DNA of 64,000 nt from Eledone cirrhosa (taxonomy: Eukaryota), in assembly GCA_964016885.1 (NCBI GenBank), contig OZ024751.1:5642001-5706000 (forward strand), given 5' to 3'. This document shows positions 3,770 to 61,218 of this stretch, one piece after another; the first letter of the stretch is position 1; each line of letters opens with the position of its first letter. A model generated the notes under the pieces. The model had not been told where the DNA came from. It ran no database searches and worked only from the letters and a program-made list of their open reading frames with translations. The translations under genes and the position numbers were made by a program.

Positions 3770-6700
3770 GTTAGGGAAGCAGAAAATTGCTTATTGTGAT
3801 CCAGTTCGTGGTTAAGAAAGCCAGTTTCATGGACGGTTTCAACGTACGGTTAGGGGTAACTCCACAAGTTTGTAAGAATTCCGTTCAATCTTGGAGTATA
3901 AAGTATAAAAGAGAAAACACAGGTAAGCATTAAGAGAATGATTTTATCCAGGTATTTACGACCATTTCATTGGTAAGTGAAACCTTATATTGCTATACTG
4001 CAAATAGCAGCCACTCAATGAAAATTGTTGTTCACGTCCAAATTTTCAAAATAGTGAGTAAGTTACTCTTGAAATAGTTCTTAATATATTGAGAAACACA
4101 TTTTTTTGGAATTGTATTTACTAGTATACAGAGAGAGGAAGAGAAATTAGAAAGTGGGGGCGGGGGACAAACGGAATAGTATAGAGAGAGAGAGGAAGGG
4201 GGAGAAGAGTTAGGAAGTAGAGTGACAAACTGAGATGGAGGGAGGGGTAGAGGTGGAAGGATTCCTTGATCAGTTTTGATACGTAGACTTCATGTCGTCG
4301 ATTTAGAGAATTAAATTGTTCATAGTGTGAGGGATGGAGAAAGAGAGAGAGAGGGGGAGATATAAAGAGATAAATATATATATATATAAAATATAAAGAT
4401 AAAAATAATAATGATAAAAATAAAAGTAAATAAGAGGGGGGGGGGGGAGAAAAGATCGCCAAAAAGGGGAGGGAAGAAAGGAAGAAAACGAAAAGAAATA
4501 GAAAAGGAATGAAGGTGAAGGGAGGGATATAGGTATTGGTTTTTGTGGGTAATTAAAGGGGTTAGATACAATAAGAGGGTATAAAGTCTAAGTATATGCA
4601 GTTTGTCAGTTGGTAGTAAGAGGTTAAGGGGTCGATTTGCACTTATAGTGCGAAAACTTTTCTTTGAGTCTATGGTTACAATAAATTGATCTTTCGATTT
4701 TATTGTTGAGTAACTTATTCTTCGAACTCAAAATGTGGAACAGATCAAGGTCACATAATCGACAGCTTCTCATACCACTCCGATATGGGGGTGCGTTTGA
4801 TATTTTTTTCCACTTCAGGGTGTATTGATGGTTACTTTCCCTCAGTTGCCAGGTCTTGTTTGCAAGGGTAGTTACATAACGATGCTGGGAATGTTTCATT
4901 GCGTAACGGTGTGTATACCAACGGGCTTTACATGTATTCCCAGTCGCTCCGATGTAATACCATTTCTGGTTGTCTGATTCTACTGTGCATTGGTAAACCA
5001 GGTTAGACTGCATACATTCATTATGTAATCGACAGATTTCAGGTAGGTGGCAGTTATAATTCTGGTCATGGGAAACTTTGGCATTATTGGTGGGCTGCGA
5101 TGCCTGTACGTGTTACGTTTTGTTTGCCTATTAGTGGGTGGTTGTGTATTAGATATTCTGTTGTGTTCAATGGTGATTGTTATTGTTATTGTTATAAATT
5201 TGTGTTCTGGTGTTGTTATGTATCTTTTTAGCCTTAAGCATCTTAATGTGTGCCTCTATATTTGGTGCCGTGTAGTAAGATAGTCTAATAGATTTAGTGT
5301 TAAGGATTTTGCTGTATCTATGTGAATCTGGAAAGTGCTAATTTATTATCCTAAAGAAGGTAGAAGCTAGGTTAGTACTAATAGAGGTGTTAAATATATT
5401 TTCTACTGCGTGACTTGTTTGATTTCGATGTTGTATTTCTATTTACCGTATAATTTGTAGTTCTTTGCGTAAATGCGTGTGGGCGTGTGTTTCTGGAATT
5501 TGTGTTATGTGTGTTCGTGTGCGCTTTGCGGAGGCTCTCATCTATATATTCTACTCTATCTAAGTGGCCTGCCTTGTCTAGTGCGGTATTGTAGTATTCC
5601 GCATGTTCCTCGAAGATTTGTCGGTTAGACGAGAGGCGGGAGATCCTGAGGGATACGCTGCGTGGAATGGATTTAATTATGGATAGTGGGTGGTTTGAGT
5701 TACAGTTGATGTATGCTAAGTTTTCATTACTCTTGCGAAAAGGTCTTATAAGTCCCGTATTTAGGTTAAGCGTCGCGTCCAGAAAGTTAACTGTTTTAGT
5801 GCTATACTCATACGCTATGCTAAGGCCTAGTTTCCCGAGAGTCTTTCTAATATTCTTACGGAGTCTTTCTATGCTCTGGTTATTTATGTTATTAACTAGG
5901 AGAAGGGCGTCGTTTCAGTAGATACCACCGTGAAGGTCGCTAAACTCACTCTGTAAACTATGGGCTATGTAAACGCCTACTAAATATGTTACTTAAGCCG
6001 AGTCGTTAGCCCCCATCGTGATGTCAAAGTTATTTAATCTATTCTTACGTTCCCAATAGGCGTTTTCAAATTTAATTATTGTTTTCCTAGCAGCTAATAT
6101 AATTTCTATCTCGTCGCCTGTTAGGTCAGAATTGGCTTTGGCGAATGCTAAGGCTTTATCCAAGGTGTTGGGGGATATTTGAGGAGTAATAGTCGTTAAT
6201 GTCAAATTGTATAAACTTAGATACTTTTTTGTTAGCTATATTGTTAAACCACTTAATTGTTTCGGTAGTGTTACCCCATAGTTTAATCACTAGTTTATTC
6301 TTCATTTGTGCTATCACTCTGTCTAATATATGTTTACTAAATTTCCCGATGTCCGATTTGGACGGGCATATAAGTCTAATTGGAGGGGGGGGGGCTGGGT
6401 TATAATCAAAATTTACCTTGTGGTCCTTGAGATTAAATGTGGGGGTACATGGCCTATGTGTCTTACTACCGACTGACAAACTGCATATACTTAGACTTTA
6501 TACCCTCTTATTGTATCTAACCCCTTTAATTACCCACAAAAACCAATACCTATATCCCTCCCTTCTCCTTCATTCCTTTTCTATTTCTTTTCGTTTTCTT
6601 CCTTTATTCCCTCCCCTTTTTGGCTATCTTTTCTTTTCTACTTTCTCCCCCCCCCCCCCCCTTCTTTACTTTTATTTTTATCATTATTATTTTTATCTTT

Positions 6701-7180
6701 ATTTTATATATATATATATATATATATATTTATCTGTTTATATCTCCCCCCTCTCTCCATCTATGAACAATTTAATTCTCTTTATCGACGACATGAAGTT
6801 TACGTATCAAAACTGATCAAAGAATCCTTCCACCTCTACCCCTCCCTCCATCTCAGTTTGTCATTCTACTTCCTAACTTTTCTCCCCCTTCCTCTCTCTC
6901 TATAATATTCCGTTTGTCCCCCGCCCCCACTTTCTAATTCCTCTTCCTCTCTCTCTATACTAGTAAATACAATTCCAAAAAAATGTTTTTCTCTATATAT
7001 TAAGAACTATTTCATGAGTAACTTACTCACTATTTTGAAAATTTGGACGTGAACAACAATTATCATTGAGTGGCTGCTATTTGCAGTATAGCAATATAAG
7101 GTTGCACTTACCAATGAAACGGTCGTAAATACCTGGATAAAATCCTTCTCTTAATGCTTACCTGTGTTTTCTATTTTATA
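3770..7180 (-). mobile_element. PLE (Nematis-like), 5'-truncated, with ~710-bp inverted pseudo-LTRs (3903-4620 and 6462-7180)
   Basis: Seen: long inverted repeat; the left arm has an extra ~130-nt tail (3770-3903); both ends abut (TA)n; RT and EN remnants inside. Confidence 0.9.
4624..6461 (-). pseudogene. PLE reverse transcriptase + GIY-YIG endonuclease, disrupted
   Basis: Motifs FIQFDINDYY, FDITMGANDSA, GIY*NDAL (decayed YRDD), YINCNSNHP, LVYQCTV...YYIGATGNTCKARWYTH...CRLCDL; stops and frameshifts. Confidence 0.9.
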
Positions 7181-7756
7181 TTATATATATATATACATAA
7201 GCCCCACCACCAGCACCACCAGCACTCCCAAAACTTTAATGGATGCTCTGGTGTTACGTGAAATCTCCCTGAAAATTACGTAATAGATACATATATCTGT
7301 AGAATACTTGACCATTTGCATTTGATTTTCACAAGCTGGATATTCTAAGAACCTTTAGTTATAAATATGATATTATCTGTTTTGCGTAAATGTCAGCGTG
7401 TGAATATTGTTAGTGTATGTGTGTGTGAGTGTTTGTGAGTGTGTGAACATGTATAAGTGTGTATGCATTGGAGTGTGCATATGTGTGTGTTCAGTATTTT
7501 TATCCTTGCAAATACCAAAGATAAGCAACTATTGTAGTAGCGCCCCACTCACTTAAGCACCTTATAACGTAAATGGAATATTAAGTACTTCCAACTGCAA
7601 ATACCACAAGAAAACAACAAAACGAATAAACAATTACCCCCTCTGGCACAATCAAACGACCAATAGAACATTGAGAACAGGAAGGACAGAAATAGAAATA
7701 TAGATACAACAGACATGATTGAAATAAATTACATTTACCTGAATGTTTAGATATAT

Positions 7757-8062
7757 ACGAGATTAGGCTGAAATGTTCATAAGCTGACTATGATTCTAAA
7801 GCTGTGAAATCATGCATGCGTTAGTTGCAAATCTGCATTGTTTCTTTCCAGGGACTATGTTGAAAACTAAAACCTCATTTAGTAATTCCATGCGAGTATT
7901 TTGGTCAGCCTATGAAGGAGGGATGCTAGAGCTATGAAATCTTGCGTGCATTAAATTCAACTCTTCTTATTTCGTGCATTAATTTCAACTGCGCTGATTT
8001 TTTTCCAGGGACGATGTTGAAAAATAAACCTCATTTGGTCAACCTATTAATTTTTCCGCCTA
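7757..8062. mobile_element. Decayed mariner-type MITE
   Basis: Starts tacgagattaggctgaaatgttcataagctgac, similar to the TIR of 20960-21161 and 53177-53316. Confidence 0.55.
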
Positions 8063-8109
8063 TTATGTGTTATATATAGAATGAATTCACAAATAAGTTT
8101 TAAAACTAG

Positions 8110-59835: not shown

Positions 59836-60124
59836 CACCCATACACACAACACACACACACACACACACACACACACACACAGACCCACTCACATACTCA
59901 CTTAAACACACATGCATACAAACAAACACACTTACTAACACACAGATATATATATTATTGTCATTATTGTCGATAAAATAAAGTACCACTGGGATAATTT
60001 CTGGCCTTCTGCCAAATTAGAAACAATTACTAATATTATGGATGTGGCACTTGTTGTCTTTTGAAGGTTTGTTCGTTGACCGAGTGGCGGTGGTGGTGGC
60101 ATATATATATATATATATATATAC

Positions 60125-60716
60125 GTACATAGGTACATATATATATGTGCATATATATAGGTGTGCATGTATGTATATATATATATACATACTACTGGAC
60201 GTCAGTATACATGTATGTACGTGTACATACTTATATTTAAGTAACAGCCGTAATAAGAGTGGCAAATGAAATTTCGTTTCATTTTTTTTCCGTTTATCGT
60301 TTACGGTGTACCCGGCCGATTAACCCACTCGATATGCAAATTGGGCTACTCAGCCGTTAATATGCATAAGGTAAGTATAAACGTTCAACAATCTGGCAGG
60401 AAGGTATACGTTGCTGAAGATAGCTAATAAGCTTGAAACTAGTACAGCTTTCCTTTGTCAGTGTTGAACAAACGAGCACCGATGGTTGCTAGACACTACG
60501 GCTTAATACGGGATGTTTGTTTACAAACACACCGAGCATTATAATAAATGTTCGGTGAATCCATGCGTAAATATATATATGTGTGCATGTATGTATATAT
60601 ATATACATACTACTGTACGTCTGTATACATATATGTATGTACGTGTACATACTTATATTTAAGTAACAGCCGTACTAAGAGTGGGAAATGACATTTCGTT
60701 TCATTTTTTCCGTTTA
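60125..60716 (+). mobile_element. Retrozyme-like family A, copy 3; HHR 60410-60448
   Basis: ~1.4 units; gttg-CTGAAGA-tagctaataagctt-GAAACTAGTA-cagc. Confidence 0.75.
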
Positions 60717-60730
60717 TATATATATATATA

Positions 60731-61218
60731 TAAATGGAAAAGAATGAAATGAAATGAAATTTCTCACTCTTAGTACGGCTGATACTTAACTATAAGTATG
60801 TATACGTACAGACATATATGTATACAGACGTACAGTACTATGTATATATATACATACATGCACACATATATATATGTACGTATGGGTTTACCGAACATTT
60901 ATTATAATGTTCGGTTTGTTTGTAAACAAACAACGCGATTTAAGCCGTACAGTGTTCGGCAACCATCGTCGCCCTTTTGTTCAACACTGACAAAGGAACG
61001 ATGAACTAGTTTCAAGCTTATTAGCTATCGTCAGCATCGTATACCTTCCTGTCAGATGATTGAACGTATGAAAGTATACACTTTCCTTATACATATTAAC
61101 TTTATAATAAATGTTCGGTAAACCCATACGTACATATATATATGTGTGCATGTATGTATATATATGCATACTACTGTACGTCTGTATACATATATGTATG
61201 TACGTATACATACTTATA
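60731..61218 (-). mobile_element. Retrozyme-like family A, copy 4 (tail-to-tail with copy 3; inverted arm 61102-61218); HHR 60998-61040
   Basis: acgatg-CTGACGA-tagctaataagctt-GAAACTAGTT-catcgt. Confidence 0.75.

What the first reader, a model, noticed from the sequence alone, without database searches (positions are those of the whole stretch)
3770..61218. Pervasive asymmetric inverted-repeat insertions in (TA)n: two outward-facing 3' ends, one shorter
Seen in at least 15 insertions from many unrelated families (3770, 8750, 9181, 18306, 18766, 19871, 26011, 26400, 29876, 30300, 44634, 48027, 55751, 56652, 57280, 57893, 60731): both arms are the element 3' end pointing outward and one arm lacks the last ~30-160 nt. 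The short-arm end recurs within a family (aacaatat at 19610 and 26376; catacttata at 56645 and 61217; ttatattata at 33967 and 56652), usually at an internal AT/TA run. Established: inverted pLTRs with a 3' tail occur in Penelope. L1 twin priming inverts without duplicating. Inference: both sides of a cut in (TA)n prime reverse transcription on duplicate templates, one at the RNA end and one at an internal AU run. HHR stem-III dimerisation could hold two RNAs together.
Basis: partly seen in the sequence, partly recalled or inferred. Interest (0 to 1): 0.75.

Follow-up and report, generated by a model that had tools for sequence, protein, structure and literature searches.

The report
Two-start priming in Penelope insertions
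These mirror-image inserts in TA repeats are real and match the known layout of Penelope-like jumping genes, and they nearly always pair one long with one short end, likely because both cut DNA strands start copying at two fixed internal points of the element's RNA.

Summary
All 17 listed inserts are real head-to-head pairs with 3' ends outward, from 13 families. Seven carry Penelope-like (PLE) protein remains (six Hydra-type, one Neptune-type); the others are hammerhead-bearing, tRNA-headed or unassigned repeats with the same ends. The inverted copy, one-sided tail and (TA)n targeting are published PLE features. Added here: each family has two fixed ends, long (L) and short (S), and 110 of 124 classed pairs are L+S against 62 expected by chance. 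In 48 of 95 neither arm contains the other, so simple fold-back fails. Arms differ by about 4.6% (not library artefacts) but share subfamily markers. Two-ended priming is supported. In Hydra-type families a small hairpin follows S, and L where seen. One RNA versus two copies stays open. This scan noted the same pattern before, in this genome and in others.

The parts
3770..6460 (-). Family D long arm: 5'-truncated, broken Hydra-type PLE (ORF remains 4624-6420, GIY-YIG with CxxC and CxH), U3-A8 hammerhead-like motif, 127-131-nt tail ending at 3770
6461..7187 (+). Family D short arm (S end, about -127)
8750..8969 (.). Family G pair (tRNA-headed tandem unit, no hammerhead found): long arm 8750-8880 minus, short arm 8881-8969 plus
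9179..9547 (.). Family H pair (Hydra-type): short arm 9179-9379 minus, long arm 9378-9547 plus
18306..18722 (.). Family I pair (about 300-nt tandem unit with hammerhead): long arm 18306-18610 minus, short arm 18618-18722 plus
18767..19610 (.). Family C pair (Neptune-type PLE): long arm 18767-19482 minus, short arm 19481-19610 plus with an internal deletion; 50-nt perfect palindrome at the joint
19871..20069 (.). Family J pair (Hydra-type): short arm 19871-19936 minus, long arm 19923-20069 plus
26012..26376 (.). Family C pair: long arm 26012-26360 minus, 19-nt short arm 26358-26376 plus
26400..27115 (.). Family N pair (about 430-nt tandem unit with hammerhead core): 1.5 units minus 26400-27032, short arm 27057-27115 plus
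29877..30058 (.). Family G pair: short arm 29877-29908 minus, long arm 29912-30058 plus, followed by a SINE-like repeat
30299..33970 (.). Family B pair: tail-bearing arm 30299-30616 minus; long broken Hydra-type PLE on plus (CxCX5C linker, GIY-YIG at 31999-32400) ending at the S end 33970
44634..45052 (.). Family K pair (about 700-nt unit, half hammerhead core only): short arm 44634-44728 minus, long arm 44720-45052 plus
48027..48401 (.). Family E pair: short arm 48027-48130 minus, long arm 48144-48401 plus with 161-nt tail
55751..56645 (.). Family F pair (about 440-nt tandem hammerhead unit): tandem minus arm 55751-56406, short arm 56416-56645 plus
56652..56961 (.). Family B pair: short-ended arm 56652-56820 minus reaches further inside; tail-bearing arm 56818-56961 plus, then (CA)n; neither arm contains the other
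57280..57622 (.). Family M pair (Hydra-type): long arm 57280-57456 minus, short arm 57454-57622 plus with the whole hammerhead; neither arm contains the other
57893..58168 (.). Family A pair (Hydra-type): short arm 57893-58001 minus, long arm 58000-58168 plus, perfect palindromic joint; first tail hairpin just after 58108
60731..61218 (.). Family F pair: long arm 60731-61100 minus, short arm 61098-61218 plus

Best explanation
These are head-to-head insertions of Penelope-like retroelements and their passenger RNAs in (TA)n, and the long-plus-short rule likely arises because both nicked target strands prime reverse transcription in one complex, one at a distal (L) and one at a proximal (S) fixed internal site of the RNA. 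Shown: two discrete ends per family, L+S pairing, same-source arms, target duplications where the repeat is interrupted. Inferred: (1) the GIY-YIG nuclease nicks both strands of (TA)n; (2) a protein dimer holds the RNA at two sites, in Hydra-type families marked by two copies of a small CTC...GAG hairpin 3-9 nt downstream of each start; (3) 0-4 nt of pairing with the TA end only fine-tunes the start base; (4) both cDNAs stop early, often at folded RNA, and their 3' ends are joined by short overlaps or small insertions; (5) where the L cDNA passes S the region is copied twice, most simply on one RNA by strand displacement (my odds about 0.55), otherwise on a second copy from the same source, such as the repeat in a tandem transcript (about 0.45).
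For: L+S in 110 of 124 classed pairs from 10 families, 62 expected, p=6e-20; 27 L+S, 2 S+S, 0 L+L in a census of family J on the first 70 Mb of contig C1; 23 L+S, 1 S+S, 5 unclassed of 29 J loci. Solo copies end at S or L alike, so S is a start in its own right. In 48 of 95 resolved pairs the short-ended arm reaches further inside while the other holds the tail, and 11 of 95 have no duplication. Arms share source: 41 rare shared variants vs 3.5 for random partners; 36 of 303 linked diagnostic sites differ vs 46% for unrelated arms. Hairpin within 10 nt after S in 6 of 7 families by a strict descriptor and 7 of 7 by a loose one, after L in 2 of 3 (strict) or 3 of 3 (loose), in 0 of 5 other families, background 0.7%. 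Interrupted target repeats occur on both sides (e.g. L139, L284, L352). In vitro a Poseidon protein cuts and extends both strands, starts at two internal sites that bound the tail, and is predicted to be a dimer (PMC11167929).
Against: No pile-up of L-arm inner ends at S (4 of 59 within 13 nt), which one shared RNA might give. No RNA-editing signature among shared variants (A>G 4 of 41). PMC11167929 saw no difference in start site between top and bottom strand in vitro, so the L+S coupling has not been seen biochemically. 14 of 124 pairs are L+L or S+S. Families C, F, G, I, K show the asymmetry without the hairpin, so it is not the general signal. The continuation past L seen for family A (L021) showed no clear second hairpin (read by eye). 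Shared variants could partly come from later conversion between arms. S zones were set by eye after seeing the data, loci are the best 30 of 40 scored per family, and partners beyond 1.5 kb were not seen. No long reads were available.
Confidence: 0.7

Rival explanations
1. One reading: two separate RNA molecules, held together by hammerhead stem-III pairing, are primed at the RNA end and at an internal AU run.
For: Stem III is palindromic in A, B, E, F, M; PLE hammerheads are thought to work as dimers (PMC4209133); two templates give duplication without strand displacement; there is no pile-up at S.
Against: Same inversion rate without a palindromic stem III or without a detectable ribozyme (65/111 vs 47/84); 0 of 33 pairs join two subfamilies; L is not the RNA end; better TA runs unused; independent RNAs do not by themselves give L+S exclusivity.
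Confidence: 0.1
2. One cDNA folds back on itself (or an antisense RNA self-primes, PMC3846280) and the copy strand stops at S, or the nuclease trims a hairpin intermediate at L and S.
For: 25 of 95 pairs are symmetric within 10 nt and 22 of 95 have the short arm contained in the long arm; several joints sit on short palindromes; some L+L and S+S pairs have nearly identical arms (L281, L360: 0.4%).
Against: In 48 of 95 pairs neither arm contains the other and 11 have no duplication; many solo copies end at S. It may explain a minority, mostly the L+L and S+S pairs.
Confidence: 0.13
3. The inversions arose after insertion (DNA fold-back repair in unstable TA repeats) or are library or assembly artefacts.
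For: (TA)n is fragile and palindromes trouble assemblers (own knowledge; PMC8557442 notes assembly problems); no read set bridged a joint here.
Against: Arms of one insert differ by a median 4.6% (108 pairs); ends fall on two family-specific bases in thousands of copies; target duplications flank whole pairs.
Confidence: 0.04

Closest known systems
Endonuclease-bearing Penelope-like elements with inverted pLTR and one-sided tail (PMC8557442 Fig. 2; Pen2a_Av, PMC3846280)
   Same: Inverted 5'-truncated copy joined head-to-head, tail on one end only, variable target duplication, (TA)n targets, hammerheads in the repeat.
   Different: Tails here are 26-161 nt against the 30-40 nt described; I found no count of the L+S rule in the passages read; about half of sampled copies are inverted.
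Hydra clade PLEs (PMC8557442 section 11)
   Same: CxCX5C linker (B, M), no CCHH, CxxC and CxH around E and N (A, H, M, D), RWR where the paper gives RWK (J, H, M), (TA)n insertion, hammerheads.
   Different: The paired tail hairpins are not mentioned in that section; several hammerhead cores deviate (U3-A8 in D; substitutions in A, B, H).
PAc (Poseidon of Anolis) in vitro mechanism (PMC11167929)
   Same: Two internal start sites bounding the tail, both strands cut and extended, predicted dimer, AT-rich target, ribozyme cleavage dispensable.
   Different: No coupling of start site to strand was seen in vitro and start sites were called non-homologous to the target; here ends pair L+S and show 0-4 nt TA overlap.
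L1 twin priming (as described in PMC2912911)
   Same: Both target ends prime, two cDNAs joined at short complementarity, inverted 5' part.
   Different: L1 uses the RNA 3' end plus a variable internal site; here both sites are fixed and internal, and 84 of 95 pairs duplicate the shared region.
Non-LTR retrozymes (bioRxiv 10.64898/2026.07.22.740005, first part read)
   Same: Families F, I, N are tandem 300-440-nt units with type I hammerhead cores and PLE-type ends.
   Different: Family G has a tRNA-like head and no hammerhead found, yet the same ends.

Membership tests
EN+ Penelope-like elements | C-terminal GIY-YIG endonuclease upstream of the 3' repeat | tested here: met
   Motifs read in translations for A, B, C, D, M and the C-terminal part for H; Pfam GIY-YIG only E=0.021, below cut-off, for 31999-32400
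EN+ Penelope-like elements | Telomerase-related RT placed by phylogeny | not tested
   Window copies are truncated and broken; no RT tree was built
EN+ Penelope-like elements | Tandem or inverted pLTR with optional tail | tested here: met
   150 of 281 sampled loci have an inverted partner within 1.5 kb; tail runs into the ORF start in L435, L266, L355
EN+ Penelope-like elements | Hammerhead motif in the pLTR | tested here: inconclusive
   Descriptor hits in C, D, F, I, M; read by eye in E, N; deviant cores in A, B, H; half core in K; none found in G, J; no Rfam hit at gathering score; cleavage untested
EN+ Penelope-like elements | Target-site duplication of variable length | tested here: inconclusive
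   Hidden in pure (TA)n; 16 of 131 pairs share a 7-nt or longer non-AT-only word on both sides, several clear, some chance
Hydra clade | CxCX5C linker, no CCHH, CxxC and CxH around E and N | tested here: met
   B, M linker; A, D, H, M CxxC and CxH; at most one Cys between the GIY and YIG equivalents; criteria
Hydra clade | N-terminal RWK motif | tested here: met
   RWR at the matching place in J, H, M copies that run past L
Hydra clade | DKT motif and clade placement by RT+EN tree | not tested
   No full-length ORF was fetched
Neptune clade (family C) | CX2-5CxxC linker plus CCHH, C-terminal EN | tested here: met
   L116 translation shows CX4CxxC and two Cys between the GIY and YIG equivalents, His residues downstream; Nematis not excluded without a tree
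L1-type twin priming | First primer at the RNA 3' end, second at a variable internal site | tested here: not met
   Both ends fixed and internal; it works like twin priming but is not the L1 case
Non-LTR retrozymes (F, I, N) | Tandem non-coding units, each with a type I hammerhead | tested here: met
   Tandem continuation and cores; circular RNA and cleavage not testable here

The most novel reading that the evidence does not exclude
Penelope-like elements integrate by obligatory two-ended priming: a dimer grips one RNA at two paired hairpins, each subunit writes a cDNA into one target strand, and the distal one displaces the proximal one, so that one RNA molecule is copied twice. This would explain the tail, the inverted pLTR and the mobilisation of ribozyme and tRNA-headed passenger RNAs in one mechanism.
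Probability: 0.4. Interest if true: 0.7.

Novelty: new member of a known kind. Interest (0 to 1): 0.42.

Why it matters
How PLEs build inverted repeats and one-sided tails is named as an open task in PMC8557442, and PMC11167929 leaves the later steps unvalidated. The L+S rule, the non-nested arms and the paired hairpins turn this into direct tests in the existing in vitro system. It also matters for annotation: thousands of these short palindromes per family can be mistaken for DNA-transposon miniatures. The layout itself is not new.

Tried and rejected
Read support: no RNA holder listed and no long-read run offered. Contigs of four runs, three from one sample that may be the source, gave one contig joining unique flank to the short arm at 57780-57912 and none bridging the central joint: no verdict. 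m1A58 stop in family G: inner ends pile at -143/-144, A58 is at -149: rejected. RNA editing as a one-molecule marker: no A>G excess. Pile-up of L arms at S: not seen. Hammerhead cleavage site as an arm end: cores and GAAA lie 40-200 nt inside of S: rejected. Rfam: no hit. Monomer folds of seven motif regions were weak, z from +0.4 to -1.9, and one region missed its motif. My first clade call (Neptune for all) was withdrawn after reading the Hydra criteria. Family F was left out of pair statistics because tandem units and internal palindromes confused the classifier; family N was read by eye only. The first family M reference wrongly spanned the joint and was replaced. Sequence-based de-duplication misfired; nine duplicate loci were dropped by coordinates. 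A pattern search for sequence past L in family A gave 6 matches, none a clear continuation. The original L1 twin-priming paper was not held. (CT)n or (CA)n next to some ends could be start-site stutter, but later microsatellite slippage explains them as well.
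Full report
Setting. The window is G000:C11:5642001-5706000 of a 3.0-Gb animal assembly. An earlier scan note calls this genome octopus; I did not test that.

Observation. Self-alignment and mapping on genomic family copies confirm all 17 inserts as head-to-head pairs with one arm short of the family's last 26-161 nt. 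They fall into 13 families, which I lettered: A 57893; B 30300 and 56652; C 18766 and 26011; D 3770; E 48027; F 55751 and 60731; G 8750 and 29876; H 9181; I 18306; J 19871; K 44634; M 57280; N 26400. ORF remains and hammerhead cores show that the outer ends are 3' ends.

Identity. Translations show a C-terminal GIY-YIG domain in A, B, C, D, M and its end in H. Pfam support is weak (E=0.021), so this rests on motifs read by eye and by regular expression. A, B, D, H, J, M fit the Hydra clade criteria of PMC8557442 section 11: CxCX5C linker, no CCHH, CxxC and CxH, RWR for RWK. C has the Zn-finger linker plus CCHH and fits Neptune. F, I and N are tandem 300-440-nt hammerhead units. G is a 265-nt tandem unit with a tRNA-like head (ARAGORN calls in 7 of 9 loci given) and no hammerhead found. 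E shares the Hydra-type hairpin; K is unassigned.

Genome sample. For 11 families I fetched 30 loci each with a query from the part shared by both arms. These are the best 30 of 40 scored among 128-2287 candidates, so they lean towards the window's subfamily, and each reaches 1.5 kb either side. After dropping 9 duplicates, the window's own 10 loci and family F, 281 loci remain. Of these 150 have an inverted partner, 124 with both ends classed and 26 with one end unclassed; 131 show no partner in range. Ends cluster at two positions per family. Pairs are 110 L+S, 7 L+L, 7 S+S; independent choice predicts 62 L+S (p=6e-20). An exact-pattern count for J gives 5058 short ends and 4971 arms that run on. 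Among the first 100 and 93 listed on contig C1, head-to-head neighbours within 1 kb are 27 L+S, 2 S+S, 0 L+L. J loci fetched separately gave 23 L+S, 1 S+S, 5 unclassed of 29 (that query included the window's joint, so it favours similar palindromes).

Not an artefact. Arms of one insert differ by a median 4.6% over 108 pairs, and interrupted target repeats appear on both sides of several pairs. Read data gave no verdict.

Two primings, not one fold-back. Of 95 L+S pairs with a resolved joint, 48 have the short-ended arm reaching further inside while the other arm holds the tail, 22 have the short arm nested in the long one, and 25 are symmetric within 10 nt; 11 have no duplication. A fold-back copy cannot hold sequence absent from the first strand, so at least half need two primings on sense RNA. 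Joints show overlap in 44 of 104, are blunt in 7 and have extra bases in 53, some of which are alignment shortfall. Inner ends recur near hammerhead stems and at the foot of G's T-stem, as expected if the enzyme stops at folded RNA (inference).

What sets the two ends. L is not the RNA end: copies that run past it continue into the ORF start (L435, L266, L355) or the next tandem unit (L222, L297). S lies in AT-rich sequence, but 11 equal or better TA-rich sites in H, K, M, F are never used (some lie in the query region, which weakens this). Following earlier notes I looked for a hairpin: CTC-stem-loop-stem-bulge-GAG starts within 10 nt after S in 6 of 7 families by a strict descriptor (7 of 7 loose), after L in J and H (M by the loose one only), in 0 of 5 other families, background 0.7%. 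Inner stem pairs differ between families while staying complementary. The hairpin cannot be the general signal, since C, F, G, I, K lack it and C still gives 14 of 14 L+S.

One RNA or two. Arms come from the same source: 74 of 108 are closer to each other than the median unrelated arm; 41 rare variants are shared against 3.5 in 40 random re-pairings; linked diagnostic sites differ in 36 of 303 cases against 46%, and 0 of 33 pairs with three or more sites are half discordant. This fits one RNA, or two copies in one tandem transcript, and argues against pairing of RNAs from different loci. Against a single shared stretch, L arms do not pile up at S (4 of 59) and no editing mark is shared. The question stays open.

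Stem III. Families with a palindromic stem III (A, B, E, M) are inverted in 65 of 111 loci; those with a non-palindromic one or none found (C, D, G) in 47 of 84; p=0.77 (H, I, K left out as ambiguous; far partners missed, mostly in D). The dimerisation idea gains nothing.

Literature seen. PMC11167929: parts 1-2 of 4 of the text. PMC8557442: passages and section 11. PMC3846280: passages; it describes head-to-head pairs and the optional tail and proposes self-priming on antisense RNA. PMC4209133: part 1 and passages; it notes hammerheads 100-700 bp apart on opposite strands. bioRxiv 10.64898/2026.07.22.740005: part 1. PMC2912911 and PMC13282606: passages. No supplements were opened. Searches for Penelope with twin priming, with head-to-head or self-priming and for recent mechanism papers returned no paper stating an L+S rule or twin priming for PLEs; the library lacks most subscription papers, including the 2005-2006 reviews that first described the tail.

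Verdict. A real and very common feature, of a known kind. The value lies in the measured L+S rule, the non-nested arms and the paired hairpins, which make an open mechanism testable. The scan has reported the same idea from several other windows and genomes; those notes are not independent support, and the counts above are my own. Interest 0.42.

Noticed in passing
window 8750-8969 and 29877-30058; L219, L222-L224, L233, L234, L237: Family G is a tandem unit of about 265 nt with a tRNA-like head in sense orientation and no hammerhead found, yet it inserts with PLE-type L+S inverted ends in (TA)n: a possible tRNA-headed passenger of a PLE. One search listed four general papers, not opened.
   Followed up: partly
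family B long ends, e.g. window 56952-57100; L042, L074, L088, L149, L168, L327: Variable (CA)n or (CT)n sits between the element end and (TA)n, always reading CA or CT outward; start-site stutter or later slippage.
   Followed up: partly
window 52555-53098: 544-nt fold-back (91% arms) that includes a SINE-like repeat and is not flanked by (TA)n; a 30-nt piece from just upstream (52531) recurs at its centre.
   Followed up: no
window 49230-49590: Hammerhead-bearing element on the minus strand (core near 49410) whose inverted part (49483-49584) copies only the inner region and lacks about 250 nt of the 3' end.
   Followed up: no
window 38000-42500: Broken non-LTR retrotransposon, RVT_1 hits at 39587-40815; a second LINE-like remnant near 58300-59800.
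   Followed up: no
window 11350-14660: Long minisatellite of 27-30-nt units.
   Followed up: no
window 44462-44622, 47938-48019, 2586-2755, 2810-3657, 48454-49137, 60100-60716: Solo or tandem copies of families H, J, B, A and F; several PLE families are nested in the same TA tracts.
   Followed up: partly
L281, L360, L344, L356: A few pairs have arms 0-0.4% apart while differing from other copies by 2-9%; the two L+L ones may be later fold-back duplications or conversions.
   Followed up: no
L434: An inverted pair whose outer arm runs past L through the second hairpin, i.e. a third, more distal end exists in family J.
   Followed up: no
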